Source of the DNA: a virus
Reading direction: 5' to 3' (one strand)
DNA: 64,000 bases
IMG/VR virus record: IMGVR_UViG_3300028920_000003
The notes below the pieces were generated by a model. The model did no database searches, was not told the DNA's origin, and was given only the letters and a program-made list of their open reading frames with translations. The first letter of the stretch is position 1. Every line of letters begins with the position of its first letter. Below, piece after piece: positions 5,027 through 64,000 of this stretch. The position numbers and the translations under genes are program-made.

Positions 5027-7024
5027 TTATTCTTGTACTCCGATTACTACAAACCTATAGGTTCCCAATGCAGGGTTAATAGCTGCTGCACCGAAGTTTA
5101 ATGTTACAGTATCTGCGGTTGCACCAGTTACCTCAACTCCAACAAGTTTGCCATCAGATTGTCTCCAAATCTGGACTTGAATATCGGTAACTTCAGTCTT
5201 ATTGAGATTGTGAGTAACAGTCGGAGCTATTCCACTTGGAACATCACCTGTGACAACAGTAGCAAAAGCTTTGTCATCAAGGGCAGATTCCACTGCTGTC
5301 ATGAAGTTCGTAAAGCTGATCTTCTTATTAGTAGCAGTTGCAGTAATATCCCAAAACGGAAGGAAGTCACCACCTGCGATAGTAGTCTCAGTGGTGAGAC
5401 TGTTAATATCGAGATCAAAAGTTATAGCAGTAGAACCATCGTAAGGTCCACCTGACAGACCTGAACCAGCAGTCAAATCTGCAAGATCAATTTCAGACCC
5501 AATCTCAGACTTAAGATTAGCCCAAGTGATCTTCCTTTGACCAGTTCCAGTAACATATACTGCAAGTTCATCAGCATCTACCAATGTAGTTACAGCAGTC
5601 AATCTCGAAACATCCAAAGTAAGGTTTCTAGTTGTGGTAATATCTCCACCTCCGTTTAAACCTGAAGTTGCAGCAGTTGCTATTGATACAGTAGAGTGAT
5701 CAACGTGTTCATTAGCTACATAGTCACTGAATCCGTCGTGGAAAGCACCACCGTCAAATGCGAATGATCCATCACTCAAAGCAGTATCAAAGTTTGCTTT
5801 GGTATCAGAAATTCCATAACCTGCAAGGGTTGTAGGAGTAGTTCCAAGATCATCAAAATCGACTGATGCCCAAGCTGCATCAGTTCCATCTGATTTCAAG
5901 AATGTATCAGCAGCACCAATTGTAAGTTCCTCCCAAGCAGGAGTTGCGTTACCTATAATAATTGAACCACGACTTACAGCACTTGCTACTGTATCACCGT
6001 GAGTAACACTTAACAAGTTGTGAGCAGTTGCTCCTGTTGGAGGATTCACCCATACAAGTGCATCTCCTGCTCCGTTTACAGAGAGATGTTGATTTGCTGC
6101 ACCAATAGGAAGCTTGCTAAGAGTATTAGCTGCTGAAGCCCACAGAATATCACCTAATGTATAAGTACCTATTCCTGTACCACCTCTACTATTAGCAAGT
6201 GTTCCTGTCCATCCAACACTGATAGAAGTTGCCTGTAACAGTGCTGTAGCAGGAGTACCACCAAGACTCAGTGTTACGTTCGTATCATCAGTTTTGGTAA
6301 GTGCTGCTGGTGTAATTAAGTCATTGTTGAAATTCGACAGATTATAACCTGAAGGATCAACAAACTCAAGAGCATCAGGAGTGGAATTAACCATTACCAT
6401 ATACCCATCTGAACCAGTGTAGTTAGCAGGAGTATCGCTGAGTTCGGTGAAGTTTTCAGCAATATTTCTATTAACTCTGGTCCAATCACCAAGAGCTGAT
6501 GGATCATCAGTCTCAGCAATAAGAACATCTCCGACATCTACAGCTTCAGTGAAGAAATCACCTGCATTTGTAACAGTGTACATATCTCCTTGGAAGACTG
6601 TACCAGCAGAAGGAGTTTCAAGATTAGGAGTGTTTGTAGTAGCGTTATAACCACCTTTGTATTCAACACCACCTGATAGTGCAGTACCGATAGCATCACG
6701 GACTGCTTTTTCTGTCGGAATTGATGTATCAACACCGGGAGTTCCGATACTGGTCGTCAAAAGAAGACCAGTTGAGAGTTTGTTACCAATTGTTCCACTC
6801 CACTGAGGAATGTAACCATTGGTCGACGATGCTGGACCCTGCGTAAGCGAGTTCCAAGCTGAATCGTCGTCATTGTAGACTTTCAAATCATAGTTGGTAC
6901 TATCCCACCACATCATACCACCTAAGGTATTTGCGTTAGTAGGAGCAGTCCCTGCACTATGAACAACGAAATTCAGTAACTGAAAATCGTTCATGTCAAT
7001 CGACTGTACGAAGGGAATTGCCAT
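5027..7024 (-). CDS. tail fibre / receptor-binding protein
   Basis: 665 aa, rich in Thr/Gly/Ala. Shares the D(T)xIPT(E/S)xAV(R/F)DAIG motif with the adjacent 1392-aa fibre. Sits in the fibre gene cluster. Confidence 0.6.
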   Translation of the reverse strand: MAIPFVQSIDMNDFQLLNFVVHSAGTAPTNANTLGGMMWWDSTNYDLKVYNDDDSAWNSLTQGPASSTNGYIPQWSGTIGNKLSTGLLLTTSIGTPGVDTSIPTEKAVRDAIGTALSGGVEYKGGYNATTNTPNLETPSAGTVFQGDMYTVTNAGDFFTEAVDVGDVLIAETDDPSALGDWTRVNRNIAENFTELSDTPANYTGSDGYMVMVNSTPDALEFVDPSGYNLSNFNNDLITPAALTKTDDTNVTLSLGGTPATALLQATSISVGWTGTLANSRGGTGIGTYTLGDILWASAANTLSKLPIGAANQHLSVNGAGDALVWVNPPTGATAHNLLSVTHGDTVASAVSRGSIIIGNATPAWEELTIGAADTFLKSDGTDAAWASVDFDDLGTTPTTLAGYGISDTKANFDTALSDGSFAFDGGAFHDGFSDYVANEHVDHSTVSIATAATSGLNGGGDITTTRNLTLDVSRLTAVTTLVDADELAVYVTGTGQRKITWANLKSEIGSEIDLADLTAGSGLSGGPYDGSTAITFDLDINSLTTETTIAGGDFLPFWDITATATNKKISFTNFMTAVESALDDKAFATVVTGDVPSGIAPTVTHNLNKTEVTDIQVQIWRQSDGKLVGVEVTGATADTVTLNFGAAAINPALGTYRFVVIGVQE

Positions 7025-7036
7025 TTGCTTTGGTTT

Positions 7037-7462
7037 TTAGTTGCAGTAGGCTGTCCCTGAGTAAGTTGCGTTACCAAAGACAGCTTGTGCATTGTTATTA
7101 TCTACGTGAATTATATGAGGTATTATTTCATTTCCACTCATGTCCTCAATATGAATAGACGGTCTTTTGCCTAAGTTATGATTTATATTCCATACTTGTG
7201 CAGCCATAGACTGCGTATGAACATAATGTAAATCTCCTAATCCTGCTGTTTTGACTATTAAATCCCCGTCTGCTGTACCAGTTTTCCACCAGTACTCTTC
7301 ACCATTTATATTTACAGTCAACCCTCTATGCCTGATAGCAGCAGGGATTGCAGCGATAGCAGCAGCAGTATTAACGTAAGGTACACCTTCGTTGTCGTAC
7401 TTCGCATCGGCAGGTTTAGGGTTCAGCACTTTCACCCCAAATGGTAATTCAAGGCTTGCCAT
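7037..7462 (-). CDS. hypothetical tail-associated protein
   Basis: 141-aa ORF between two fibre-like genes. Function assigned by position only. Confidence 0.45.
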   Translation of the reverse strand: MASLELPFGVKVLNPKPADAKYDNEGVPYVNTAAAIAAIPAAIRHRGLTVNINGEEYWWKTGTADGDLIVKTAGLGDLHYVHTQSMAAQVWNINHNLGKRPSIHIEDMSGNEIIPHIIHVDNNNAQAVFGNATYSGTAYCN

Positions 7463-8685
7463 TACGCTGTGTGTATTTGATGCCTGTGGTCCGATGAATA
7501 AGGCGCACCGACATTCATTTCATAAATATTGTATGCTCTATTTGTACCTCCTGCGTCTAAAACGTTAATACTAGGTTGTGCTATATATTCGCTTGTTATA
7601 TCTGCATTTAGTGCATCAAGGTCAATAACTGATGTAATAGTTCTTCCCGGTGGTAGAGCTACTACAAATTTAGTCAATGTTGAACCCGTATTCAAATTAA
7701 AAGTGTTACCTCCTGTCTGAAATGCAGATTGAGGCAATGCTCTTACCGTAGCACTATTTGTCGGACTAGTTGCGGAAGCTCCGTAGAACCTATAAAATCT
7801 TGCTGTCACGGTATAAGGACTACTATTAAAAACTACATTTGGAATAGGTGTAATATCTGTTGCAACACCTCTCCACTGTTGAGTAGCTCCATCACTATTG
7901 AGTTGTATAGTATTCGCTACATCAATATGACTTCCATCGTTAGGAGTATCTACAACAATAGCACTTGCACTGGTTACATCTTCTATAGAAATAGTAGGAA
8001 CATCTCCTGAATTAAGGTTTATTCCCCATGTCCAAGTTCTACCTCCTGCGATTGTTGTTCCTACTTCAATTGTAGTAGGCTGAACTCCGACAGAGAAGAA
8101 AGACCAAGTAGCAGCTATGTACTCTATCGCAGCATCTAAGATAACTTCTACTGCTGTTTTACCTGTCGCAGGTATAGTTTGTCCGTTTGTATATTTACCA
8201 AACGACTTACCTCCGCTTAAAACAACATTGATATCTGCGGTAAAAATGTCTCCACCTGAGGTAGGTGCAGGTACGTGTATATAAGTATTTGATGCAGCAT
8301 CATATTGAAGAAAATCCTGATCGTTTCTAGGAGCTATATTTACATCTTGAAGCTGTTCTAATCTAAGCGGACTCTCAACAATATTGATTTCATCCGGTAT
8401 AGGTATTGTTTCAAGATATACAATACCGTCCGGTGGAACATCAGGTGGAAGTTCAACTACTGTTCCTACAGGAGAAACGTTATCTGGTGCTATAAGTTCC
8501 GGACTAGGTAAAGTATTCGGAAGCTCCACAATTGTACCTACAGGAGCAGCAGCATCAACTGAGATAAGTTCAGGAGTAGGAGTTATGGGAGGTAGGGCAA
8601 TAGGAGTCAGGTTACTCGGAACAGGTATGCTACTACCCGGACCAAGCTCGATAGTTGATGTATTATTTGTAACATCGTAAGCCAT
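7462..8685 (-). CDS. hypothetical tail protein with Pro-rich N-terminal repeats
   Basis: 407 aa. Start and stop each share 1 nt with the neighbouring genes. The N-terminus repeats ..PVGT(I/V)VELP... Confidence 0.45.
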   Translation of the reverse strand: MAYDVTNNTSTIELGPGSSIPVPSNLTPIALPPITPTPELISVDAAAPVGTIVELPNTLPSPELIAPDNVSPVGTVVELPPDVPPDGIVYLETIPIPDEINIVESPLRLEQLQDVNIAPRNDQDFLQYDAASNTYIHVPAPTSGGDIFTADINVVLSGGKSFGKYTNGQTIPATGKTAVEVILDAAIEYIAATWSFFSVGVQPTTIEVGTTIAGGRTWTWGINLNSGDVPTISIEDVTSASAIVVDTPNDGSHIDVANTIQLNSDGATQQWRGVATDITPIPNVVFNSSPYTVTARFYRFYGASATSPTNSATVRALPQSAFQTGGNTFNLNTGSTLTKFVVALPPGRTITSVIDLDALNADITSEYIAQPSINVLDAGGTNRAYNIYEMNVGAPYSSDHRHQIHTA

Positions 8686-37804: not shown

Positions 37805-38122
37805 ATGGAAACCAAAAAGCCACCTTCCGTCATAGTAGTGGAATACTATGGCGATCCTACGAGAATGATTGATGACCACGATTGCGAACCTGAGTACTTG
37901 ACTGAGATCAAGAACATGAGGTTTACTGACGTTTTTGAAGCTATTAAGTTTTTATGTCAATGTAACAGTCCGATCACAACAATAGATCAGATTGTTCCTA
38001 TTGGTAAAAAGCCTAAGAATTTCAAATTTGTTCTTCCAGAGCAAAACATCAAGATCAAACACCAAGCAGATAATGCAATTGACTCTCATTTTGATCTTGA
38101 CGATATGATGGATTGGATGTGA
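37805..38122 (+). CDS. hypothetical protein
   Basis: The ORF-track call starts at GTG 37799. I prefer the in-frame ATG at 37805 (METKKPPSV...). Confidence 0.45.
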   Translation: METKKPPSVIVVEYYGDPTRMIDDHDCEPEYLTEIKNMRFTDVFEAIKFLCQCNSPITTIDQIVPIGKKPKNFKFVLPEQNIKIKHQADNAIDSHFDLDDMMDWM

Positions 38123-38360
38123 TAGCCGTAGATATCATATCCTGACAAATATTGTGGTTCCAATCTGCAAAGAAGTTTTGGCAGTTTCACTTCTTCCACC
38201 CAAGTAAACTGTCATCCCGGAGCGAAGGGATCAGTATTTATCCGAGTGAGTTAATGGTTGAAATTCCAATTCACCTCTCCTTACATATGATACAGTTGGG
38301 CATAGGTTCCGTACCTATGTATCCCTATAAAGTATAATAAACGACTGAATGATGTTAAGT

Positions 38361-38449
38361 GAAGTGATGTAATACCTTGCGATCCACTGACTATCGGCAG
38401 ATAGATTGGAAAGGATTTATACACAGAGGTTCGACTCCTCTGCGCTCCT
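38361..38449 (+). ncRNA. tRNA-like RNA, copy A (non-canonical; weaker acceptor pairing)
   Basis: T-arm AGAGG-TTCGACT-CCTCT (38425-38441) followed by GCGCTCC. The 5' GAAGTGA pairs with it at only 5 of 7 positions. A long interrupted hairpin CCTT/TCCA/CTATC-GGCA-GATAG/TGGA/AAGG replaces the D and anticodon arms. Shares GCGATCC at the same offset, and the 3' trailer TCTATGT, with copy B. Confidence 0.4.
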
Positions 38450-38458
38450 CTATGTTAT

Positions 38459-38552
38459 GAGGTGGACGGTGACGCACGATCCTGTTCTTGCCATGTAACA
38501 GTATTTAATTGTAGTTAGATCGTGTAGGAGAGTTCGACTCTCTCCCACCTCT
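38459..38552 (+). ncRNA. tRNA-like RNA, copy B (perfect acceptor stem and T-arm, aberrant core)
   Basis: 5' GAGGTGG pairs perfectly with 3' CCACCTC (7 bp). The canonical T-arm GAGAG-TTCGACT-CTCTC abuts it directly. The interior is an 8-bp stem (GCACGATC/GATCGTGT) enclosing CTGTT-10 nt-AACAG and a 16-nt loop. There is no normal D arm or 7-nt anticodon loop. Total length is 94 nt. Confidence 0.55.
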
Positions 38553-38676
38553 CTATGTAATAGAAGCTATAGGAGATTGTGCAGTGTAAGAGTAAAAATA
38601 ACTCAACACGCCTTTGTACATGGTAGACATTACATCTTGACTTTTATTTAGATGTTTAACTTAAAATTGAGAAATC

Positions 38677-55913: not shown

Positions 55914-56678
55914 ATGTTAAAAGGAAATGAAATCAAGCTCAGTAATGGAAAGACCGTTAAAATTACAGTACTTAACGCTGTACAACTGCACCTTGATACT
56001 TCTAACATTGCGTTCCTCAATCCCAAGAAGGACGATAGTGATCATATCGTATCCATTACACTCGAAGACAAACTAACCATTGATAAAGGAGAGAAATTCC
56101 TTCTCAGGGTTGGTACAGTCAGGACTGTATATGAGGTAGAATACATGATTATTGAGAAGAAAGGTAAGTCTGTTATCATATATACTTCTCTTCCGACTAA
56201 AGCGTGTAAGTTCCTGCTACCTGCTTTAGGAAAAACGAAAGAGCAGTTGAAATTAGACACTTATTTTGTTAATGCTTATCTCGATCCAACCTATGAATAT
56301 TTGTGCTTAATGTACAGATTTACAGGTAGTCAAACATATAAGGAGTTCGAGAGATATATGATAACCGACCCTCTTTGTGTTTCTCATCTTGAGCATGGAA
56401 AATACCATGTAGTATATATCTTCAAAATTCCTTTGAATTTTAAAGAAGATGTAGTATCTTTAATAGAGGGGAAATACTCCAAGTTCTCTAAGGCGTTAAA
56501 AGGGCGCATAAGGAAGTTTTATGGTAGACAGGATAGTGAACCTTTCATAGATGTTATCGAAAGAAACGAAGATTTAAGAAAGAGTATTGAAAGATATATC
56601 GGAATGAGCCTACCTGAAGACAGTGAACTTGCATCGAAACCAGACGAAAAAAACGAAATATATATGCCTTATGAGTGA
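55914..56678 (+). CDS. hypothetical protein
   Basis: 254-aa ORF. No motif recognised. Confidence 0.5.
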   Translation: MLKGNEIKLSNGKTVKITVLNAVQLHLDTSNIAFLNPKKDDSDHIVSITLEDKLTIDKGEKFLLRVGTVRTVYEVEYMIIEKKGKSVIIYTSLPTKACKFLLPALGKTKEQLKLDTYFVNAYLDPTYEYLCLMYRFTGSQTYKEFERYMITDPLCVSHLEHGKYHVVYIFKIPLNFKEDVVSLIEGKYSKFSKALKGRIRKFYGRQDSEPFIDVIERNEDLRKSIERYIGMSLPEDSELASKPDEKNEIYMPYE

Positions 56679-57045
56679 GGATTTAAAAAAAGACCTCGAA
56701 GAATTTGAAGGGCAGATCAGTCAAGAAATATACATGAAGCTTCTCGGAGACGCTTACGAAACTATAGCGAATCTTCGGGAAGCTCTTGCTACAACCAAAA
56801 ATCAGGAAATCATTCTTCGTGATAAGATTGCAGCCCGTGTATATCCTACACTCCTTTTGCAATCGACATCAAGTGAACAGGCTGCTGAAGATGCCTATCG
56901 TGCAGCAGATAAGATGTTGAGAGTAAGAGAGACAGGTGTGGCGTTCTCTTCTGATCTTATAAAGCTCCTCAAAGAGCTTCGTGACAGTTCAAAAGATGAT
57001 ACTGTTTTTGGTCGAAGTGTTAGAACTTTCTTAAACGACAAGTAA
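56671..57045 (+). CDS. hypothetical helical protein
   Basis: Start moved to ATG 56671 (MSEDLKKDLEEF...), giving an 8-nt overlap with the upstream stop. Confidence 0.45.
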   Translation: MSEDLKKDLEEFEGQISQEIYMKLLGDAYETIANLREALATTKNQEIILRDKIAARVYPTLLLQSTSSEQAAEDAYRAADKMLRVRETGVAFSSDLIKLLKELRDSSKDDTVFGRSVRTFLNDK

Positions 57046-57046
57046 T

Positions 57047-57850
57047 ATGCAAAATGAACAAGTTTATTGGGAAGCAAACAAGAGAATCGCTCTTGCTGCT
57101 CCTTTACCTGTAAGGACTTCCACATATAGTCCTGTTTCTCATGCTGAGATAATCGAAGCAATCAGAACTAATGCTCAAACCAACAACCTGAAAATTGTAC
57201 GTGACAGAATGTACACAAACAGGTTTGGTACGAGAGTTACCGGATTCTTTGATGTCGAAGATGCAACAGACTTTGGAAATGTCCACGGTCTGAAAATGAT
57301 GTTTGGCTACCGTAACAGCTACGACAAATCAATGAGCGTAGCCTTTGTAGCAGGAGCATCTGTGTTTATCTGCGGAAATGGAATGATCAGTGGTGATCTG
57401 ATGGCTTTCAAACGCAAACACACCGGAACCGTTGCAGAAGAATTGAATGAAAAAATTCAGGTCGGAGTAGACCGAATGAGAGATGATTTTGCAAAGCTCA
57501 ATTTGGAGGTGGATGTAATGAAGAACTATTCTCTTACACCACGCCAGAAAGCTGAAATTCTGGGAGTTATGTATTTCGAGAAGAACATGGTTACTCCCAC
57601 TCAGTTGAGTATTGTGAAAAACGAACTCACAAACAGCGAACATTTCAGGGAAGACAATGCTTGGTCCCTGTATAATAATGTAACGGAAGCTCTGAAAAAG
57701 AGTCATCCGATTGACATTATCAGAGATCATATCAAACTGCATGGATTCATGCAGGAGCTGGTAGGAATTGCTCCGGAAGAGGTGGGAGAAACTGTTGAAG
57801 CTGCACCCGAAGCAGAGACATCTGATGCACCACCCGAAACTGAAGGATAA
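57047..57850 (+). CDS. DUF932-like (phage/plasmid-like) protein
   Basis: 267 aa. GYRNSYDKSMSVAFVAGASVFICGNGMI resembles the NSHDGS....G...VC.NG core I recall for the DUF932 family. Assignment is from memory of the family. Confidence 0.45.
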   Translation: MQNEQVYWEANKRIALAAPLPVRTSTYSPVSHAEIIEAIRTNAQTNNLKIVRDRMYTNRFGTRVTGFFDVEDATDFGNVHGLKMMFGYRNSYDKSMSVAFVAGASVFICGNGMISGDLMAFKRKHTGTVAEELNEKIQVGVDRMRDDFAKLNLEVDVMKNYSLTPRQKAEILGVMYFEKNMVTPTQLSIVKNELTNSEHFREDNAWSLYNNVTEALKKSHPIDIIRDHIKLHGFMQELVGIAPEEVGETVEAAPEAETSDAPPETEG

Positions 57851-58526
57851 GTTCCTAGACTTATTGGGAGTGGAGTGGTTTAATGTCATTGAACCATATT
57901 TAGATACAAAAGATTTTGGAATAATCACTGTTGAGTTATTTAAAGAAAGAAGATTATATACCGTATATCCAGAACAAGGCTCTGATTTACTTTTCAAAGC
58001 ATTCAGAACCACTCCTCTTTCAAAAGTCAAAGTTGTGATACTTGGTCAAGACCCGTATCATGACGGTTCTTTTGATGGTTTTGCTTTTTCAAATAAAGGT
58101 AAAACCGGAAAACTTTCTCCTTCCTTGGTAAATATCCTCAAAGAGATCGAATCAGACGTATATGAAGGACTTATGCTTGATCATGACCCTGACCTAGAAA
58201 GGTGGGCGAAACAAGGCGTATTACTTATAAATACGGCTCACACGGTCCGTAAAGGAGAAGCTGGTTCACACCTGCATCTATGGGACATGTTTACAGCAAG
58301 AGTTATCCACGTACTTGTGAACAGACATCAACCTATAGTGTGGATGTTATGGGGATCGAAAGCAAAAAAACATCTTGAAGGTAGAACTTTATCAAAAGAT
58401 CACCTCAAGTTGACTTGTCCACATCCTTCCCCTTTCTCAGCTTATTCCGGATTCTTTGGGTGTAAGCATTTTAGTCAGGCAAATACATTTTTACTAGAAC
58501 ATAACATTGAACCGATTAAATGGTAA
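57825..58526 (+). CDS. ung: uracil-DNA glycosylase, family 1
   Basis: VVILGQDPYH (water-activating loop), GFAFS, LLINTAHTV and CPHPSPFSAY (HPSP leucine-loop motif). Start moved to the in-frame ATG at 57825. Confidence 0.85.
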   Translation: MHHPKLKDKFLDLLGVEWFNVIEPYLDTKDFGIITVELFKERRLYTVYPEQGSDLLFKAFRTTPLSKVKVVILGQDPYHDGSFDGFAFSNKGKTGKLSPSLVNILKEIESDVYEGLMLDHDPDLERWAKQGVLLINTAHTVRKGEAGSHLHLWDMFTARVIHVLVNRHQPIVWMLWGSKAKKHLEGRTLSKDHLKLTCPHPSPFSAYSGFFGCKHFSQANTFLLEHNIEPIKW

Positions 58527-58547
58527 TTATATGAGTACAAAGAAGAA

Positions 58548-58727
58548 ATGACCAAGAAGACACGAATTTGTGATAACTGTATGGAGAAAGACTCTAGTGA
58601 TAACCCTGTTTCTCCTTACAGGTGGATGCGAGTCATGGATAAGTATAATTATAAGCACAAAATGCTTATCAAGATTGATCTCTGTGATGATTGTGCATCT
58701 AAAGTAATTTTAACCTTTAAAAAATAA
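58548..58727 (+). CDS. small zinc-ribbon protein (59 aa)
   Basis: Hand-translated: MTKKTRICDNCMEKDSS...KIDLCDDCASKVILTFKK (CxxC...CxxC). One residue below the ORF-track cut-off. Confidence 0.35.
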   Translation: MTKKTRICDNCMEKDSSDNPVSPYRWMRVMDKYNYKHKMLIKIDLCDDCASKVILTFKK

Positions 58728-58732
58728 TTCAA

Positions 58733-59104
58733 ATGTTTGAAAGCCAAGTTGAAGAATATATTGGTAAGGCTCTGGTAGCAGAAGCCAACGGTGACGGTGC
58801 ATTCCTGAGTGAAAGCGAAATTGCCTTTCGTGTTACAGGAATGATGTACGCTGACAAGATCAAGTCAGATGGTCCTGTTTCCCTTCGTTCTGTCAAAGGA
58901 AAGATGGGAAAAGTCCGTACCATGTGTGATGAGAAGTCTTTGCTTCTGATCATGAAGACAGAGGATGATACCCTCAAGTGGAAAATTGCTACCGGAGATG
59001 ATCTGGACTATATTGCTGAGACCTATCTCGGTATTAAAGTCGAGAAGGATGTTACTCCGGAATCTGAATCGGTTGCTGATAAGGCTCCCGACTCAGGAGA
59101 ATAA
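58733..59104 (+). CDS. hypothetical protein
   Basis: 123-aa ORF followed by a terminator. Confidence 0.5.
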   Translation: MFESQVEEYIGKALVAEANGDGAFLSESEIAFRVTGMMYADKIKSDGPVSLRSVKGKMGKVRTMCDEKSLLLIMKTEDDTLKWKIATGDDLDYIAETYLGIKVEKDVTPESESVADKAPDSGE

Positions 59105-59126
59105 TACTACTTTCGCTTAGTAGGTG

Positions 59127-59166
59127 CTGAGTGGGAAAGCAGTATTGTTAGTACCACTCAGTTTTA
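59127..59166 (+). terminator. rho-independent terminator
   Basis: CTGAGTGG-19 nt-CCACTCAG followed by TTTT. It lies inside the N-terminal extension of the ORF-track call 59124-59570. Confidence 0.7.
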
Positions 59167-59201
59167 AGAACCTAACGTTAAACTCTTATAAACCATTAAA
59201 A

Positions 59202-59570
59202 ATGAAAGAGATAAGAAAATATCAAGTCCTTTTTGATGGTGGAGAGATTGCCGAACTTGTAGGATTTTATTCAGGAGCAAATAAAGCCACCGGAATTCCT
59301 ATTTTTAAGATAAGAGATAAGTTCTACCTCGGTCAAAATCCCTCTACCGGATCAATGTTCGGGTCGTTCGCACGTAGAGGATATCCCCTTTATTGGGAAC
59401 TCTCAGAATATCCTGATAGAACTGTAGGTCTGAAGTATACAGGAAAAATTGTATTTATGTTCAGACTAATCTCTACCGTATCAGCAAAGAATTACATAAT
59501 TTCGGTGATGAAGAAAGAAAGACAGCATTTAAAAGCTGTAAACAAAAGACCTGTAATGGTCGAAGTCTAA
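59202..59570 (+). CDS. hypothetical protein
   Basis: Start moved to ATG 59202 (MKEIRKYQV...), downstream of the terminator. Confidence 0.45.
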   Translation: MKEIRKYQVLFDGGEIAELVGFYSGANKATGIPIFKIRDKFYLGQNPSTGSMFGSFARRGYPLYWELSEYPDRTVGLKYTGKIVFMFRLISTVSAKNYIISVMKKERQHLKAVNKRPVMVEV

Positions 59571-59587
59571 TAATTAAAACCAAAAAA

Positions 59588-59950
59588 ATGGCGGAAGAAG
59601 TAGAACAAGGTGCTGTCGAAGTACAAGGCGGTGCATTCAAAGATTCCTTGTATCGCAATAATGCGAAGATCAGGAAGGACCGTGCAGACTCTATCATTGA
59701 GGACGCACAGTTAATTTACAAGCGTGAAATCGAAGACCTTGAGGTCGAGATGAAGCGTATGTTGAGGGAACAGGACAATATGCTGGATTTGTCTCCAACA
59801 AATGCTATGAACCTGACTCTTGCGAGTGATTTTGACTCAAAAGAGTATGTAGCAAAAGACCTTGAACTTGGTGTGAAACTTCGCAATCTTGAGATCAAAC
59901 TTGAAATTGCAAGAAAGAGGTATACTTACCTGTTTGGAGGAACTGCGTAA
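59588..59950 (+). CDS. coiled-coil hypothetical protein
   Basis: 120 aa, charged and helical. Its stop overlaps the start of the vWA gene by 1 nt. Confidence 0.45.
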   Translation: MAEEVEQGAVEVQGGAFKDSLYRNNAKIRKDRADSIIEDAQLIYKREIEDLEVEMKRMLREQDNMLDLSPTNAMNLTLASDFDSKEYVAKDLELGVKLRNLEIKLEIARKRYTYLFGGTA

Positions 59951-60807
59951 TGGGTAGAGGTTCATATTCGTACAGCACTCGAATGGAGAGAGCTGCGGTA
60001 ACAGGGATGATGACTAATTCTCTGACAGAAAACTTCAAGAGTAAAGCAGTTACTCGTGAGATGACTACCGTAGGATTGGAATATAGAGAGTCCAGAGATT
60101 CAGAAGAACATCCTAAATCTGTTGCAATCATCGTAGCATTGGATGTTACAGGATCAATGGGATCAGTTCCAGATCATATGATCAAAGAAGGTCTTCCTAC
60201 TATGATGGACACCATTATTAAGTCTGGTGAACCCGATCCACAGGTTCTATTTGTGGGAATCGGTGATCATGTATATGATCGTTCTCCCTTGCAGGTTGGA
60301 CAATTCGAGAGTTCAGATGAACTTTTGGACAAGTGGCTACAAGATACCTACCTTGAAGGTGGTGGAGGCGGTAACGATGGTGAGAGCTATATGTTAGCTT
60401 GGTACTTCGCTGCCCGTCATACTCAAATTGATTGTTTTGAAAAGCGTGAACAGAAGGGATTTCTCTTTACAATAGGTGATGAGAAGAATCTTCCTGAAGT
60501 TCCCGGTCCTGTTCTCAAAGGTATTATGGGAAAAGGTCAATATGATGATACAGTGAAATCTTCTGATCTTCTGGAAGAAGCAAGGAAGATGTACCATGTA
60601 TATCATATTCATATCTCTGAAACCCATTCTGGAAAACGACAGGATGTTGTAAGTCACTGGAAAGAACTCTTAGGAGACAATTTGATTGTTGTTCAGAGTT
60701 CTGATCATGTGAGTGGGATTATTGCTTCAATTGTCTCAGGTAAGGACACCTCTGATAGTAAAGAAGATGATCCCGAAACAGATGTTCCAAACGAAGAAAT
60801 GCTTTAA
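59950..60807 (+). CDS. von Willebrand factor A (vWA) domain protein
   Basis: 285 aa. AIIVALDVTGSMGS carries a MIDAS-type D-x-(S/T)-x-S motif after a beta-strand. GIGD and TIGDE acidic strands come later. Confidence 0.6.
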   Translation: MGRGSYSYSTRMERAAVTGMMTNSLTENFKSKAVTREMTTVGLEYRESRDSEEHPKSVAIIVALDVTGSMGSVPDHMIKEGLPTMMDTIIKSGEPDPQVLFVGIGDHVYDRSPLQVGQFESSDELLDKWLQDTYLEGGGGGNDGESYMLAWYFAARHTQIDCFEKREQKGFLFTIGDEKNLPEVPGPVLKGIMGKGQYDDTVKSSDLLEEARKMYHVYHIHISETHSGKRQDVVSHWKELLGDNLIVVQSSDHVSGIIASIVSGKDTSDSKEDDPETDVPNEEML

Positions 60808-60809
60808 TT

Positions 60810-61016
60810 ATGGGAAATCCAAGCTATTCAGAACAGCAAGAGCTGATCAAGAAAGACTCGAAACGCTTTATGGAAGAATTTACCGCATGGTATAATACCA
60901 TAGAGTACGAGAACGATGACATTGAAGCAGCTACTCTCAGAGAAATTATGGCTGACTGTACTTATCGTCTTCAACTTGTTTTGGAGATGATTGAAGAAAG
61001 AAAAGGTTCTGTATGA
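60810..61016 (+). CDS. small hypothetical protein
   Basis: 68-aa ORF. Its stop overlaps the next ATG by 4 nt. Confidence 0.45.
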   Translation: MGNPSYSEQQELIKKDSKRFMEEFTAWYNTIEYENDDIEAATLREIMADCTYRLQLVLEMIEERKGSV

Positions 61017-62185
61017 GAGCAGCCGTTATCGGACTCGGTTTCGGAGATGAGGGGAAAGGTATGGTAGTATCATACCTTTCTTCTATTCTTAAAAAACCAC
61101 TTGTCGTAAGATACTCAGGAGGACATCAAGCTGGTCATGCAGTAGTTGATGAGAGAAATCGTAAACACTCCTTTGTTAATTTCGGTAGTGGAACTTTACA
61201 AGGATGTCCTACTTACTGGTCTAAGCATTGCACTTTTGAACCTGTTGGATTTCTAAATGAATTAGCTGATCTAGTAGATTTAATGAAAGAAGACTTTGAT
61301 GGTATCAAAGTTTACTTGCATGAAGATTGTCCAGTAACTACCCCCTATGACATAAACTTTAATCAGAAAGCAGAAGTTGAGAAGATGCATGGAACCTGCG
61401 GAGTTGGATTTGGTGAAACTCTTGAAAGAGAGAGTAACCATTTTCATCTAAGAGTTTCAGACCTCTTTAATCCTTCTGTTCTGGTGATCAAGCTTGAGCA
61501 GGTAGCTAAGTATTATGGTCTGTTCTACAAATCTCCTGTAGATACAACAGACTTTTTAGAAGCTGTCAGTGTGTTGAACTCGGAATCTAAGTTTCCTAAC
61601 GAAGTTATTACAGTTGTTGGGGATACTGACGTTCCATCTTATCCGAATACTATATATGAAGGCTCACAAGGTCTACTCCTCGATCAGGATATTGGATTCT
61701 TTCCACACGTTACACGTTCAAATGTGGGACGGAAGCGATTGGATAACTTTATATACCACTACGATGAAGTGTGGTATGTTACAAGAGCGTACCAAACCCG
61801 TCATGGAGCAGGACCAATGACCAATGAGGATGAACCCTTTACACTTATAAATCTTGAGACTGAAACAAACGAAGAAAATAAGTGGCAGGGACCATTTCGT
61901 AGAAGTATTCTGGACCTTGATCTATTGAAGTATGCTATAAAACATGACAGGAAGAATATCAAAAGAGTTCAGGAAGAACGTCTGGTAATAACCTGTCTGG
62001 ATCAAATGGTACAGTGGATATACAAAGAGGACGGTGATCTACATACCTGTGAGAATGAAACAGATTTTGTGGCAAATGTTGCAAAGTCTCTTGGGTTCTC
62101 AGAAAATATCTATCTTAGCCGTTCTCCAAAAAACGAACTTGAAAAATGGAAAGGAGGAAATTATGATGATAAAGAGAAAGTTTGA
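61013..62185 (+). CDS. adenylosuccinate synthetase family protein (PurA/PurZ-like, divergent)
   Basis: 390 aa. GLGFGDEGKGMVV (PurA P-loop GDEGKG), RYSGGHQAGHAV (GGHNAGHT), YEGSQGLLLDQDIGFFPHVTRSN (EGAQG.LLDIDHGTYP.VTSS) and RAYQTRHGAGP (KAY.TRVG.GP). The Asp-binding GATTGRRRR loop is replaced by NKWQGPFRR. Confidence 0.75.
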   Translation: MRAAVIGLGFGDEGKGMVVSYLSSILKKPLVVRYSGGHQAGHAVVDERNRKHSFVNFGSGTLQGCPTYWSKHCTFEPVGFLNELADLVDLMKEDFDGIKVYLHEDCPVTTPYDINFNQKAEVEKMHGTCGVGFGETLERESNHFHLRVSDLFNPSVLVIKLEQVAKYYGLFYKSPVDTTDFLEAVSVLNSESKFPNEVITVVGDTDVPSYPNTIYEGSQGLLLDQDIGFFPHVTRSNVGRKRLDNFIYHYDEVWYVTRAYQTRHGAGPMTNEDEPFTLINLETETNEENKWQGPFRRSILDLDLLKYAIKHDRKNIKRVQEERLVITCLDQMVQWIYKEDGDLHTCENETDFVANVAKSLGFSENIYLSRSPKNELEKWKGGNYDDKEKV

Positions 62186-62744
62186 ACATTTTGATGTACT
62201 GTCAATCGGTACACAATTAGAAATTGTAGGTGTGGTCTATGGATCAGAAGAAGAAAATATCATCATAGTTCTTCCTGATGAGTCCATACTCGAACATATG
62301 CAAGTTTTGTTCCCTACTCTCGATGAGTGGCAACAGATTGTTCGTCAATCTGACCTCAAAGAGACTGAAGGAATGGTTAAAGGCAAAAAGGTTATCCTGC
62401 GAAAGTCTACCCGACAGATCGAACAAAAAACGATGTGGGAGGTGTTTCGCAGAGACGATTTCACCTGTAGATACTGTAATGCGGATAATGTTCCAATGAC
62501 TGTAGACCATGTGGTTCTATGGGAGGAAATGGGTCCAAGTATTCCTGTCAACCTCATTACGAGTTGTAAAAAATGTAACAACGCAAGAGGTAACATGCAA
62601 TACGAAGAGTGGCTCAAGAGTCCGTATTACTTGTCAAAGGTTCCCTTACTCCCGGTAAATGTTCTTGCAGCAAATGCCAGAGCTGCAACAGAGATACCAA
62701 GGACGAAAGAGTTCCTTTTGCGCACCGTGAAGCGCAGCCGATAA
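62163..62744 (+). CDS. HNH endonuclease
   Basis: Start moved to ATG 62163 (MMIKRKFEHF...). CRYCNADNVPMTVDHVVLW......NLITSCKKCNNARGN is a His-Me finger with Cys pairs. Confidence 0.7.
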   Translation: MMIKRKFEHFDVLSIGTQLEIVGVVYGSEEENIIIVLPDESILEHMQVLFPTLDEWQQIVRQSDLKETEGMVKGKKVILRKSTRQIEQKTMWEVFRRDDFTCRYCNADNVPMTVDHVVLWEEMGPSIPVNLITSCKKCNNARGNMQYEEWLKSPYYLSKVPLLPVNVLAANARAATEIPRTKEFLLRTVKRSR

Positions 62745-62792
62745 TTCACATCCTCTAATTAACTTAGTAGCAATCTTTTAAAACCATTTCTC

Positions 62793-64000
62793 ATGGCGAA
62801 GTACAACGTCAAGAGGGAGACAAAACACGTTCCCTCTGAAGTAAACAAGATGGGATCAGCAGCTTATAAGCTTGATCCAAAAGAAGAACTCGTATCTACT
62901 GTGCTGACTACGTTCGTACAGAAGTCTTACTACGAAAAAGAAAAGGAGATCATGGATCGCTTCCGAAAGGCAGCACTCCAAGTTGATCCTTTGTTCGTAG
63001 CAAAGACTGCTATCTATGCACGTATGGCAGCTAATATGAGGAGTTCGTCTCACGTACTTGCTGCTGAACTCGCTCCGAGAATTTCCGGAGAAGAGTGGGC
63101 ATCAAGATTCTATCATAAGGTTATCAACCGTGTTGATGACATGAGTGAAATTCTGTCCTACTACAGGAATATCATGAAAGGTAAAGGAGTTCCTAACGCT
63201 ATGCGTAAGGGATTCAAAGTCAAGCTTGAATCACTTGATCCTTATCTGATTGATAAGTACAAAATGCTTGGTAGGGAGATTTCTCTCATTGATCTTGTGA
63301 ACCAGATTCACCCTGTTCCGACTCAGACAAATGCAGAAGCTTTTCGTCTGCTTATGAAAGAAGGAGGAAAGGGTATAGATAAACTCTACAGTTCTAAGAT
63401 TCTCGAAAAAGAGATGTCGAAGGCTGGAAAAGTTTCCAAAGAAGATCAGAAGACTGTTGAAGTAGCCAAACAAGAGGCTATTGAATCAGTTCTCGGAAAC
63501 ATCAAGGGTATGCCTATCTTCAACCTGCTCAGGAACCTGAGGAATATTATTCTTTATGCTCCTGATTCAGTAGATGAAGCTGTAAGGCAACTTGTGATTC
63601 CGGAAAAGGTTTATAAGTCAAGGCTTCTGCCTTTCAGGTTTCTCTCTGCTCATATTGAAATTAGCAATATGAGATATGAGCTTAAAGAAGGAACCTCATC
63701 TTCAATCGTATTTGAGGACGAAGTTGAAACCAGAGTTGCAACTCGTGAAGAGTTCACTCGACTGAAAAACCGTGTTCTGACTTCATTGGAAACAGCAATC
63801 GAACTTTCTTGCCACAACATTCCTGAATTGGAAGGTCGTGTGGCTATCCTTATTGACCATTCAGGGTCTATGAGAGGAGACGGTGGTGGAGCATCACTTG
63901 TCTCAGTACTCTCAAGGACTACTGTGGTCGATATTGCCAACCTGTTCGCTGCTATGCTTCTGAGTAAGCAACCTAGCGTATACGTTGGACTGTTCGGTGA
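62793..64000 (+). CDS. rsr: Ro60-like TROVE-domain protein with vWA module (Rsr orthologue), 3'-truncated by the window edge
   Basis: Hand translation from ATG 62793 stays open to the window end and is not in the ORF track. MPIFNLLRNLRNI...SRLLPFRFLSAH parallels human Ro60 MPLTALLRNLGKM...ARIHPFHILIAL. VAILIDHSGSMRG parallels the Ro60 vWA MIDAS LLAVDVSASM. Confidence 0.8.
   Translation, partial: MAKYNVKRETKHVPSEVNKMGSAAYKLDPKEELVSTVLTTFVQKSYYEKEKEIMDRFRKAALQVDPLFVAKTAIYARMAANMRSSSHVLAAELAPRISGEEWASRFYHKVINRVDDMSEILSYYRNIMKGKGVPNAMRKGFKVKLESLDPYLIDKYKMLGREISLIDLVNQIHPVPTQTNAEAFRLLMKEGGKGIDKLYSSKILEKEMSKAGKVSKEDQKTVEVAKQEAIESVLGNIKGMPIFNLLRNLRNIILYAPDSVDEAVRQLVIPEKVYKSRLLPFRFLSAHIEISNMRYELKEGTSSSIVFEDEVETRVATREEFTRLKNRVLTSLETAIELSCHNIPELEGRVAILIDHSGSMRGDGGGASLVSVLSRTTVVDIANLFAAMLLSKQPSVYVGLFG

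What the first reader, a model, noticed from the sequence alone, without database searches (positions are those of the whole stretch)
62793..64000. Phage-borne Ro60 (TROVE + vWA) orthologue, missed by the ORF track
Seen in sequence: an open frame of more than 400 codons runs off the right edge. It shows clear similarity to Ro60 in the Y-RNA/misfolded-RNA-binding HEAT ring (..LLRNLRN.., ..R.LPFRFL.A..) and in the vWA MIDAS (DHSGSM). Established knowledge: Ro60/Rsr ring proteins bind non-coding Y RNAs. In bacteria they work with exoribonucleases in RNA quality control and stress or UV recovery, and rsr usually sits next to its Y-RNA gene and often next to RNA-repair genes (rtcB/rtcA). Inference: a lytic phage carrying its own Ro60 suggests it manipulates host RNA decay or repair. 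One example would be protecting or repairing tRNA/rRNA cut by anticodon-nuclease-type defences. The partner RNA may be the tRNA-like pair at 38.4-38.6 kb, or it may lie beyond the window edge.
Basis: partly seen in the sequence, partly recalled or inferred. Interest (0 to 1): 0.75.

Follow-up and report, generated by a model that had tools for sequence, protein, structure and literature searches.

The report
Ro60 RNA-binding ring gene in crAss-like phage
The open frame at the window's right edge is a genuine, intact Ro60 (RNA-binding ring protein) gene of a crAss-like gut phage, and its partner "Y RNAs" lie just past the edge; phage Ro60 systems are already known, so this is a good new example and not a new kind of system.

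Summary
An ATG at 62793 opens 402 stop-free codons to the window edge. They match Pfam TROVE (57 bits, cut-off 23) and contain LLRNLRN, RLLPFRFLSA and the MIDAS DHSGS. A 98.9-kb contig that is 100% identical to window 56013-64000 completes the gene: 551 aa, window-equivalent 62793-64448. A predicted structure matches only Ro60/Rsr structures over its full length.

The window is a crAss-like phage, with major capsid, portal, terminase and DNA polymerase genes.

The ~1-kb gap after the stop codon holds an array of small RNA genes on the same strand:
- a minimal Y-RNA hairpin;
- a YrlA-type tRNA mimic;
- a real tRNA-Arg(UCU) enclosed in the same covarying stem.

This UACUUCG stem module flanks TROVE genes in more than 75 phage and Bacteroidota loci, always on the gene's strand.

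The 38.4-38.6 kb "tRNA-like pair" lacks the module. No rtcB, rtcA or ligase gene lies nearby.

Phage Ro60 with Y RNAs is already published (mycobacteriophages; the crAss001 early gene; Thermus phage phiLo, whose Ro60 binds Y-like RNAs and host PNPase). The finding is therefore a new member of a known kind. The possibly new element is genuine tRNAs housed in Y-RNA stems.

The parts
62793..64000 (+). First 402 of 551 codons of a Ro60/Rsr (TROVE + vWA) gene. The gene continues to window-equivalent 64448, outside the window.
   Evidence: Translation; Pfam TROVE 57.4 bits; PHROG 850; full-length 551-aa product on the 100%-identical contig L286 at 6781-8436; Foldseek top 13 hits are all Ro60/Rsr.
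62850..63713 (+). HEAT-like helical TROVE region (residues about 20-307), the part of the ring that binds RNA in solved Ro60 structures.
   Evidence: phmmer/hmmsearch alignment to Thermus phage phiLo Ro60 (9l5y/9kop) over residues 19-288, E=4.7e-21 with the family profile; all-helical in the AF2 model.
63525..63545 (+). LLRNLRN motif (residues 245-251).
   Evidence: N244, L245, R247, N248, L249 and N251 are invariant in 25 homologues of 52-100% identity. The motif aligns to LVRNLNN of phiLo Ro60.
63621..63650 (+). RLLPFRFLSA motif (residues 277-286).
   Evidence: L279, P280, R282, F283 and A286 are invariant. The motif lies inside the best Pfam TROVE stretch, residues 226-307.
63840..64000 (+). 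Start of the C-terminal vWA domain (first beta strand, residues 350-355, onward), cut by the window edge.
   Evidence: DSSP of the model shows alternating strand/helix from residue 350. There is a weak VWA_2 hit truncated by the edge, and vWA-only structures rank after the Ro60 structures in Foldseek.
63855..63869 (+). MIDAS DxSxS (D355-H-S357-G-S359).
   Evidence: D355, S357 and S359 are invariant. The remaining MIDAS residues, T434 and D460, are invariant in the full-length alignment but lie beyond the window.

Best explanation
The frame encodes the phage's own Ro60/Rsr protein: a ring of helical TROVE repeats closed by a vWA/MIDAS domain.

Shown by computation: family membership, an intact full-length gene, and a Ro60 fold. 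Also shown: immediately downstream on the same strand, just outside the window, lies an array of small structured RNA genes that share one stem module. The module reads P1, a 10-nt 5' loop, P2, UUACUUCG, cargo, P2', a U-rich 3' loop, P1'. The same module sits beside bacterial rsr genes, where it forms the end-stem of YrlA-type Y RNAs.

Inferred: the phage Ro60 binds this stem module and forms Ro-Y RNA particles early or midway in infection. The variable 'cargo' then acts as the effector arm. The cargo is a minimal loop, a permuted tRNA-like domain, or a genuine tRNA-Arg. By analogy with D. radiodurans and Salmonella Rsr-Y RNA-PNPase and with Thermus phage phiLo Ro60-Yrl-PNPase, the effector arm would tether or block a host RNA-processing enzyme, most probably PNPase or a tRNA-recognising enzyme. 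This would re-tune RNA decay or processing in the phage's favour. Housing real tRNAs in the same stem suggests the particle also handles maturation or protection of phage tRNA.
For: Protein:
- Pfam TROVE is above its cut-off.
- The MIDAS residues D355/S357/S359/T434/D460 are invariant.
- The AF2 model has pLDDT 74.
- Its top 13 Foldseek hits are all Ro60/Rsr over the full length: phiLo, human, Xenopus, D. radiodurans; probability 1.0, TM 0.56-0.70.

Context:
- Major capsid, portal, TerL and DNA polymerase genes are present.
- The major capsid protein is 36-38% identical to Crassvirales.

Extension:
- L286 is 100% identical to window 56013-64000.

RNA array:
- E1 hairpin at L286 8474-8542 scores 28.2 bits, E=1e-5, with model R1, and its fold z-score is -5.8.
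- The YrlA-like element at L286 9121-9278 aligns with the YrlAs next to the rsr genes of a Flavobacterium MAG, Xanthocytophaga and Bacteroides/Bacteroidia MAGs. Paired cells: T stem 70/70, acceptor-like stem 94/98, P2 59/60, P1 55/60, each with several pair types.
- tRNA-Arg(UCU) scores 60 bits in Rfam (on the 99%-identical L001; ARAGORN calls it at L286 9317-9389), and its flanks covary between relatives.

Family-wide:
- WTACTTCG occurs 220 times on the TROVE strand against 27 on the other strand in 109 loci.
- R1 gives 99 hits, all on the TROVE strand.
- 92.8% of stem cells are paired, against 59% in shuffles and 44-51% in slid controls, and all 15 pairs covary.
- The same module lies beside bacterial rsr genes, crAss001 gp96, and the Ro genes of phages Atuin and phiLo.

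Literature:
- Chen et al. 2014 (PMC4201824), Hu et al. 2025 (PMC12135203), Shkoporov et al. 2021 (PMC8375218).
Against: - No binding, expression or phenotype data exist for this phage. The protein-RNA pairing rests on adjacency, shared strand and homology of architecture.
- The RNA genes are outside the window and are known only from an identical contig.
- R1 detects only E1 in this genome. The YrlA-like and tRNA units are supported by motif, covariation and alignment, not by an E-value.
- The published Ro-binding motif (GNCGAAN0-1G / CGAA) is not matched exactly. Which part of the module contacts the protein is unknown.
- Alignment A6 was fitted to the model, so its pair counts lean towards the structure.
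- The structure model is of moderate confidence (pTM 0.60).
- The PNPase link is pure analogy.
Confidence: 0.72

Rival explanations
1. The protein is a Ro60 that works alone as a chaperone or sensor of misfolded RNA. On this reading the downstream RNAs are simply phage tRNA and tRNA-like genes, and their shared flanks are a leader-trailer processing duplex (for RNase III/E/P/Z or a phage nuclease), not a Ro-binding site.
For: Genuine tRNAs sit inside the stems in register: 12 of 176 distinct units, with a covarying cloverleaf. Ro genes often lie in phage tRNA clusters, for example Atuin and L013. Each stem is followed by a U-run, which is visible in the sequence.
Against: The same module closes minimal hairpins with no tRNA content at all (78 of 176 units). 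It also closes canonical YrlA RNAs beside bacterial rsr genes that are not in tRNA clusters. tRNAs further from the TROVE gene in the same loci lack the motif, for example most of the 21 tRNAs in L013. The module tracks the TROVE gene and its strand across hosts: Bacteroidota genomes, Clostridia MAGs, and an Arthrobacter and a Thermus phage.
Confidence: 0.15
2. One reading: the phage Ro60 is part of an RNA-repair counter-defence. It would work with RtcB/RtcA-type enzymes to rescue tRNA or rRNA cut by anticodon nucleases.
For: In Salmonella, rsr-yrlBA is co-operonic with rtcBA (literature: PMC7790460, PMC9879122). The phage array contains tRNA and tRNA mimics.
Against: No RtcB, RtcA, ligase, Pnkp or PNPase domain was found in the called genes about 10 kb upstream or about 2.7-4.5 kb downstream, in three related contigs. 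The neighbours are ThiF, DUF932, UDG, an adenylosuccinate-synthase-like gene, HNH, a small 'protease' PHROG and unknowns. Only 64 kb plus about 3 kb of the 98.9-kb genome was inspected.
Confidence: 0.08
3. A TROVE/vWA protein used for a non-RNA purpose, for example MIDAS-mediated protein binding or anti-defence. On this reading the similarity to Ro60 is only structural.
For: The MIDAS site is fully conserved. Sequence identity to characterised Ro60s is low, 14-21%.
Against: TROVE motifs in the helical ring are invariant. The full-length fold matches RNA-bound Ro60 structures. A covarying RNA family is strictly associated with the gene.
Confidence: 0.03
4. A pseudogene, an assembly artefact, or host DNA wrongly attached to a phage contig.
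For: The gene is cut by the window edge, so the window alone cannot exclude a stop just beyond it.
Against: The identical 98.9-kb contig has the intact 551-codon frame. Relatives of 62-99% identity occur with the same synteny in viral contigs of about 92-101 kb.
Confidence: 0.01

Closest known systems
Thermus phage phiLo Ro60 (phiRo60) with Yrl1/Yrl2 (Hu et al., NAR 2025, PMC12135203; PDB 9KOP, 9L5Y)
   Same: A phage-encoded Ro60 ring with a vWA domain. It is the closest solved structure by both sequence (E=4.7e-21 with the profile) and fold. Y-like RNAs are encoded next to the gene. It is reported to bind host PNPase and attenuate it.
   Different: About 20% identity. The host is Thermus, not (presumably) Bacteroidota. 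The published Yrl RNAs lie upstream and were defined by a CGAA motif. Here the RNAs lie downstream, share a UUACUUCG stem module, and include a YrlA-type tRNA mimic and a genuine tRNA. Model R1 also finds one more candidate module downstream of the phiLo gene (L283 4972-5035).
Bacterial Rsr with YrlA/YrlB Y RNAs, and mycobacteriophage Ro/YrlA (Chen et al., RNA 2014, PMC4201824; YrlA structure, bioRxiv 10.1101/312249)
   Same: The Y RNA is encoded within 4 kb of the gene on the same strand. The 5' and 3' ends pair into a long stem. The element order is T arm, closed acceptor-like stem-loop, UA, D arm. A YUAY (here UUAC) begins the variable region. The module found here also flanks the rsr genes of Butyricimonas, Odoribacter, Chitinophaga, Arcicella and a Flavobacterium MAG.
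   Different: The phage YrlA-like RNA has an extra anticodon-arm-like hairpin after the D arm, which the bacterial YrlAs aligned here lack. The GNCGAAN0-1G motif is not matched exactly. No rtcBA neighbours are present. Some units carry real tRNAs in normal (unpermuted) order.
Bacteroides phage crAss001 gp96, 'TROVE domain-containing protein' (Shkoporov et al. 2021, PMC8375218)
   Same: [quoted passage not shown] Model R1 finds a Y-type stem module about 100 nt downstream on the same strand (L287 8692-8773, E=3e-6). The gene is reported as an early transcript and a 'possible ribonucleoprotein component'.
   Different: Only 23% identical over 313 aligned positions, and 472 aa against 551 aa. It sits in the early operon at the genome end, whereas here the gene follows the replication/nucleotide-metabolism block. 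No Y RNA was mentioned for crAss001 in the two papers read, and no paper in the searched library links Crassvirales with Y RNAs.
Eukaryotic Ro60-Y RNA particle (Xenopus 1YVP/1YVR/2I91; human 9NEN/9NEP)
   Same: Same overall fold over the full length (TM about 0.6). The partner RNAs have a terminal stem and a variable effector loop.
   Different: 14-17% identity. The Y RNA sequence motifs are unrelated in detail, and the Rfam Y_RNA model does not match.

Membership tests
Ro60/Rsr (TROVE + vWA ring proteins) | TROVE domain profile match above the curated threshold | tested here: met
   PF05731: 57.4 bits (window fragment) and 56.4 bits (full length), against a cut-off of 23.
Ro60/Rsr (TROVE + vWA ring proteins) | C-terminal vWA domain with a complete MIDAS (DxSxS...T...D) | tested here: met
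   D355, S357, S359, T434 and D460 are invariant in 25 homologues. The model has an alpha/beta domain from residue 350. vWA structures are the next-best Foldseek hits. Only the DxSxS lies inside the window.
Ro60/Rsr (TROVE + vWA ring proteins) | Closed ring (doughnut) fold shared with solved Ro60 structures | tested here: met
   The top 13 Foldseek PDB hits are Ro60/Rsr with 541-574 aligned columns, probability 1.0, TM 0.56-0.70. The model is of moderate confidence (pLDDT 74, pTM 0.60).
Ro60/Rsr (TROVE + vWA ring proteins) | Y-RNA gene(s) encoded nearby on the same strand | tested here: met
   Met in the 100%-identical contig just past the window edge. Not met inside the window.
Ro60/Rsr (TROVE + vWA ring proteins) | Physical binding of Y RNA or misfolded RNA; association with PNPase | not testable with these tools
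   Needs EMSA, RIP-seq or pull-down.
YrlA-type bacterial Y RNA (for the RNA at window-equivalent 65133-65290) | Terminal stem formed by the 5' and 3' ends, enclosing T arm, closed acceptor-like stem-loop and D arm in that order | tested here: met
   MAFFT alignment with the YrlAs beside rsr in Bacteroidota genomes and MAGs. All four helices are kept (92-100% of cells paired) and each shows compensatory changes at most of its positions.
YrlA-type bacterial Y RNA (for the RNA at window-equivalent 65133-65290) | GNCGAAN0-1G (CGAA) Ro-binding motif near the 5' end | tested here: inconclusive
   No exact match. The candidates are UUACUUCG(A/U)A at the junction and the 5' loop: UAGCUAG in this clade, GCCGUAG in Bacteroidota. 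No reference YrlA sequences were available for a direct alignment.
YrlA-type bacterial Y RNA (for the RNA at window-equivalent 65133-65290) | Match to a curated RNA family model | tested here: not met
   Rfam 15 gives only tRNA matches in the array, even at E<=10. Whether Rfam holds a YrlA model at all was not established.
Canonical tRNA (for the 38.4-38.6 kb 'tRNA-like pair') | Cloverleaf recognised by ARAGORN or the Rfam tRNA model | tested here: not met
   No tRNA anywhere in the window. Only a T-arm fragment matches, at E=3.
Y RNA stem module (for the 38.4-38.6 kb pair) | Match to covariance model R1 or the WTACTTCG motif with pairing flanks | tested here: not met
   No hit in 38.1-38.7 kb with the filters off at E<=10. 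The motif is absent there.

The most novel reading that the evidence does not exclude
In crAss-like phages the Ro60-Y RNA system may have been extended so that bona fide phage tRNAs are transcribed inside Y-RNA stems. The tRNAs seen in this arrangement are Arg-UCU in this genome, and Ile, Tyr, Lys, His, Asn and Gln in relatives. The same stems also enclose permuted tRNA mimics and minimal hairpins. Ro60 would then act as a gatekeeper that holds, matures or shields phage tRNA precursors, for example from host tRNA-directed nucleases or exonucleases. These loci would also show living intermediates between tRNA and YrlA-type Y RNA.
Probability: 0.22. Interest if true: 0.7.

Novelty: new member of a known kind. 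Interest (0 to 1): 0.45.

Why it matters
Ro60 is a conserved RNA-surveillance protein and a major human autoantigen, and gut-commensal Ro60 orthologues have been discussed as lupus triggers (my own knowledge). Crassvirales are the most abundant phages of the human gut, so a Ro60-Y RNA particle encoded by them is a plentiful and little-studied form of the system.

The practical gain is a defined, testable set of partner RNAs. This includes one directly downstream of gp96 in the culturable phage crAss001, for which infection RNA-seq already exists. There is also a sequence/structure model (UACUUCG stem module) that finds Y-type RNAs beside TROVE genes in Bacteroidota genomes, Clostridia MAGs, and Arthrobacter and Thermus phages.

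The stems enclosing genuine tRNAs raise a concrete question about how Y RNAs arose from tRNA, and about whether phages use Ro60 to manage their own tRNAs.

Tried and rejected
- Megablast of 61000-64000 against INPHARED phages gave no match. Protein-level searches were needed.
- Rfam at gathering threshold on the window, and at E<=10 on 38.05-38.7 kb and on the downstream array, found nothing but tRNA. The weak hits (snoRNA, cow-rumen-4, MAT2A and others) are chance.
- The collection scan with GTAGCNANNNNNNNNNTTACTTCG (14 specified bases) was too loose. It returned about 119 single, mostly random matches (the listed loci start at L031), and these were ignored.
- MAFFT alignments of whole units (A2, A3) left the 3' arm ragged, so RNAalifold recovered only P2. 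This was solved by seeding a covariance model from 10 equal-length hairpins.
- R1 does not score the large-cargo units of this particular genome. They rest on motif and covariation evidence instead.
- The sigma-70 promoter and terminator scan of the array was uninformative. The AGTTCTTTAAAAT box before three units is not enriched in the window.
- I considered a self-cleaving ribozyme or a promoter/terminator pair as the explanation for the shared flanks. I rejected both as the primary reading because no ribozyme family matched, and because both helices covary and enclose cargo of any size.
- I considered E3 (window-equivalent 64802-64901) to be a circularly permuted copy of the module. Its sequence is almost invariant, so there is no covariation to decide between this and the competing RNAfold pairing. 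This is left open.
- The supplementary alignments of Chen et al. 2014 were not available, so no direct alignment to reference YrlA sequences was possible.
Full report
OBSERVATION. At 62793 an ATG opens a frame that stays open for 402 codons to the last full codon of the window. The ORF listing does not report it because ORFs that run off an end are omitted. The fragment matches Pfam TROVE (PF05731, 57.4 bits against a cut-off of 23) and PHROG 850 'RNA-binding protein' (E=1.3e-21). The closest solved proteins by sequence are two entries named 'TROVE domain-containing protein' (9KOP/9L5Y), which turned out to be the Ro60 of Thermus phage phiLo.

FULL-LENGTH PROTEIN. The large protein database gave 1635 homologues. 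The best is 99% identical and 551 aa long. Looking up the exact adenylosuccinate-synthase-like protein of the window returned a 98,878-bp ENA contig (ERZ27252208 k141_1853925, locus L286). It is 100% identical to window 56013-64000 (7988 of 7988 bases), so it is the true continuation. Window position equals L286 position plus 56012. The gene ends at a TAA at window-equivalent 64448 and encodes 551 aa. In an alignment of 25 homologues (52-100% identity), the complete MIDAS set D355/S357/S359/T434/D460 and the TROVE motifs are invariant. An AlphaFold2 model (pLDDT 74, pTM 0.60) was searched against the PDB. The 13 best matches are all Ro60/Rsr structures aligned over the whole length: phage phiLo, human, Xenopus and Deinococcus, with probability 1.0 and TM 0.56-0.70. 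Only isolated vWA domains follow. The protein is a Ro60/Rsr orthologue.

THE GENOME IS A crAss-LIKE PHAGE. The minus-strand block carries a major head protein, a portal and a large terminase. The plus-strand block carries a DNA polymerase. The major capsid protein is 36-38% identical to Crassvirales such as cr111_1, DAC15 and Kehishuvirus. Relatives of the Ro60 gene at 62-99% identity sit in the same synteny in viral contigs of about 92-101 kb: ThiF, DUF932, UDG, adenylosuccinate-synthase-like, HNH, TROVE. Two deposited crAss-type genomes have a 47-48% identical homologue: cr111_1 ('hypothetical') and csAssE-Sib ('Ro sixty-related protein').

WHAT LIES BEYOND THE EDGE. After the stop codon there is a gap of about 1 kb before the next sizeable gene (L286 9438). 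It is interrupted only by a called 64-codon ORF (L286 8573-8767). The gap holds a same-strand array of structured RNA elements that is conserved among relatives of 78-99% protein identity (alignment A1). In window-equivalent coordinates the elements are:
- E1, a 69-nt hairpin, 64486-64554, starting 37 nt after the stop (fold z = -5.8);
- E3, 64802-64901, almost invariant among the 78-99% relatives;
- E4, 64950-65021, and E5, 65034-65113, both closed by long stems (E4's stem shows compensatory changes between relatives);
- a 158-nt tRNA-mimic, 65133-65290;
- a genuine tRNA-Arg(UCU), 65329-65401 (ARAGORN; Rfam tRNA 60 bits on the 99%-identical L001), enclosed in a longer stem, 65302-65430.

A SHARED STEM MODULE. 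E1, the mimic and the tRNA unit have the same flanks: P1(5'), a 10-nt loop (UAGCUAG.. / UGGCUAU..), P2(5'), UUACUUCG, cargo, P2(3'), a U-rich loop (..UUUUCUC), P1(3'). P1 and P2 change in a compensatory way, both between units and between genomes. The 8-mer WTACTTCG occurs 220 times on the TROVE strand against 27 on the opposite strand (about 22 expected per strand) in 109 TROVE-encoding loci totalling 718 kb. Units with at least 11 of 12 flank pairs number 183 against 6. A covariance model seeded from ten minimal hairpins (R1) gave 99 hits at E<=1 in 72 sources. Every hit is on the TROVE strand and none is in the window.

On the 76 hits with E<1e-3, 92.8% of stem cells are paired, against 59% in column shuffles and 44-51% when partners are slid. 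All 15 pairs show double-sided changes, and the covariation score is 0.857 against 0.22. One caveat applies: that alignment is fitted to the model. RNAalifold on a purely sequence-based alignment independently recovers P2 with compensatory changes at all six pairs.

LINK TO KNOWN Y RNAs. A scan of species-representative genomes found 27-42% identical homologues in Bacteroidota: isolate genomes of Butyricimonas, Odoribacter, Chitinophaga, Lewinella, Arcicella and Paraflavitalea, and a Flavobacterium MAG. It also found 29-30% identical homologues in Clostridia MAGs. R1 hits lie beside these bacterial rsr genes on the same strand (28 hits). The 125-132-nt bacterial hits have exactly the YrlA layout described by Chen et al. 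2014 (PMC4201824) and by the YrlA structure paper (10.1101/312249): a terminal stem, YUAY (UUAC) opening the variable region, a T arm, a closed acceptor-like stem-loop, UA, and a D arm.

The phage mimic aligns with them by MAFFT. Paired cells are 70/70 for the T stem, 94/98 for the acceptor-like stem, 59/60 for P2 and 55/60 for P1, each with several pair types. It differs by an additional anticodon-arm-like hairpin after the D arm. R1 also hits beside the Ro genes of Arthrobacter phage Atuin and Thermus phage phiLo, and about 100 nt downstream of crAss001 gp96 (E=3e-6). The published GNCGAAN0-1G/CGAA motif is not matched exactly. Either UUCG(A/U)A at the junction or the 5' loop (GCCGUAG in Bacteroidota) may be its counterpart. 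I could not resolve this without reference sequences.

CARGO DIVERSITY. Of 176 distinct units:
- 78 have only a short A-rich loop, like YrlB or minimal Y RNAs;
- 84 carry a T-arm-type element;
- 12 enclose an ARAGORN-called tRNA in constant register (the tRNA starts 0-7 nt after the start of the motif); two further ARAGORN calls inside unit windows are out of register. All 12 come from viral or metagenomic contigs, none from the bacterial genome loci.

Nine such units give a covarying D/anticodon/T cloverleaf in RNAalifold. A second subtype keeps the D, anticodon and T arms, but UUACUUCG occupies the acceptor 5' strand and only 3 bp pair. In the papers I could search, I found no description of genuine tRNAs inside Y-type stems, or of Y RNAs in Crassvirales.

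THE 38.4-38.6 kb PAIR. ARAGORN and Rfam call no tRNA anywhere in the window. The two hairpins with GGTTCGACTCC / GAGTTCGACTC loops are real. The second belongs to a conserved element of about 93 nt whose 7-bp 'acceptor' stem (GAGGUGG 38460-38466 with CCACCUC 38546-38552) covaries in relatives: GGGGAGG/UCUCUCC and GGGGCGG/UCGCUCC. Neither hairpin has the WTACTTCG motif or an R1 match, even with the filters off. They are therefore not supported as Ro partners. They are a separate curiosity.

NEIGHBOURS. Pfam and PHROG scans found no RtcB, RtcA, ligase, kinase/phosphatase or PNPase. The scans covered three genes just upstream of the TROVE gene and five downstream genes on L001/L002. For the remaining called genes, about 10 kb upstream and about 2.7-4.5 kb downstream, only precomputed Pfam labels were available.

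WHAT IS KNOWN. Ro60 orthologues in mycobacteriophages, and YrlA RNAs in 22 phages, were reported in 2003 and 2014 (cited in PMC4201824). crAss001 transcribes a TROVE gene early, and that gene is called a 'possible ribonucleoprotein component' (PMC8375218, PMC10136315). Hu et al. 2025 (PMC12135203) solved phage phiLo Ro60. They showed that it binds two phage-encoded Y-like RNAs and host PNPase, attenuates PNPase activity, and they proposed a counter-defence role. The central claim of the finding is therefore correct but already established in kind.

MECHANISM. Shown by computation: a Ro60 fold, an intact gene, and an adjacent same-strand Y-type RNA array with a covarying stem module shared with bacterial YrlA. 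Inferred: the protein binds that module, and the cargo arm recruits or blocks a host enzyme (PNPase by analogy, or tRNA-processing enzymes). The stems around real tRNAs suggest an additional role in handling phage tRNA precursors.

The main rival reading is that the stems are merely processing duplexes for a tRNA cluster. Three points weaken it: the minimal hairpins have no tRNA content, the same module sits beside bacterial rsr genes, and tRNAs further from the TROVE gene lack it.

CAVEATS. All RNA features lie outside the 64-kb window. R1 E-values are rough because of the short calibration. Only E1 of this genome reaches significance with R1. The structure model is of moderate confidence. 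Nothing about expression or binding has been measured.

Noticed in passing
window 38460-38552 (+): A conserved small RNA candidate of about 93 nt with a 7-bp acceptor-like stem (GAGGUGG/CCACCUC), an inner stem (CACGAUC/GAUCGUG) and a T arm (38525-38543). The acceptor and T stems covary in three related phage contigs (L257, L260, L263). The 5' end (GGGGCGGACGGUGACG in relatives) recalls tmRNA 5' ends. ARAGORN and Rfam do not call it, and it has no Y-stem module.
   Followed up: partly
window 38252-38268 and 38424-38442 (+): Two further T-arm-like hairpins in the 38120-38676 intergenic region. The first (AATGGTTGAAATTCCAATT) is conserved in L259/L260 and resembles the GGGTTGAATTCC loop of element E4 in the post-Ro60 array. 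The second is not conserved in L257.
   Followed up: partly
window 61013-62185 (+): The adjacent adenylosuccinate-synthase-like gene falls in PHROG 1211, labelled '2-aminooxy adenylosuccinate synthetase', which appears to be the PurZ-type enzyme of diaminopurine (Z) genomes. I did not test whether this phage substitutes adenine. An adenylosuccinate synthase also lies about 2.3 kb upstream of the TROVE gene in the unrelated Vibrio phage phiKT1024 (L284).
   Followed up: no
window 62139-62744 (+): An HNH endonuclease gene is wedged between the synthase-like gene and the Ro60 gene. Its frame overlaps the 3' end of the synthase-like gene (ORF 62034-62744 against 61013-62185). crAss001 also has an HNH gene and a tRNA-Arg about 1.2 kb upstream of its TROVE gene.
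   Followed up: no
L286 8560-8790 versus L001 11781-11879: Two contigs that are otherwise 99.4-99.8% identical differ by a replaced segment between Y hairpin E1 and element E3. The window's genome has a 64-codon ORF (L286 8573-8767), whereas L001 has an unrelated hairpin. This looks like a local cassette swap inside the RNA array.
   Followed up: no
L286 8548-8562, 8756-8770, 9096-9112 (window-equivalent about 64560, 64768, 65108): A box, (A)GTTCTTTAAAAT, precedes three units of the RNA array and is not enriched anywhere in the 64-kb window. It may be a dedicated promoter or a processing signal for the small RNAs.
   Followed up: partly
L286 8790-8889 (window-equivalent 64802-64901): Element E3 is about 92% conserved at the nucleotide level across genomes whose Ro60 proteins differ by up to 22%. 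It contains the 5' arm plus UUACUUCG, with a matching P2' strand lying upstream. This looks like a circularly permuted copy of the Y-stem module capped by a tetraloop. The structure is unresolved for lack of variation.
   Followed up: partly
L283 4972-5035 (Thermus phage phiLo, MH673673): Model R1 finds a Y-stem-like hairpin (E=5e-4) immediately downstream of the phiLo Ro60 gene, overlapping the annotated small ORF phiLo_25. The published Yrl1/Yrl2 are upstream, so this may be a third, unreported Y-like RNA.
   Followed up: partly
L287 8692-8773 (-) = MH675552 96,691-96,772: The cultured phage crAss001 has a Y-stem module (R1 30.6 bits, E=3e-6) about 100 nt downstream of gp96 (TROVE), inside an unannotated 905-nt gap.
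   Followed up: partly
L002 16431-21656 (-): A called gene of more than 6100 codons on the opposite strand lies about 4.8 kb downstream of the Ro60 gene in a related 92.7-kb contig, with no Pfam hit on record. It was not examined and might be the crAss-type giant virion protein or RNA polymerase.
   Followed up: no
L285 (Arthrobacter phage Atuin), L013, L014: Ro60 genes of unrelated phages sit inside large tRNA clusters: 20 annotated tRNAs in the 7-kb stretch around the Ro gene in Atuin, and 21 in L013. This suggests a general phage-level link between Ro60 and tRNA genes.
   Followed up: no
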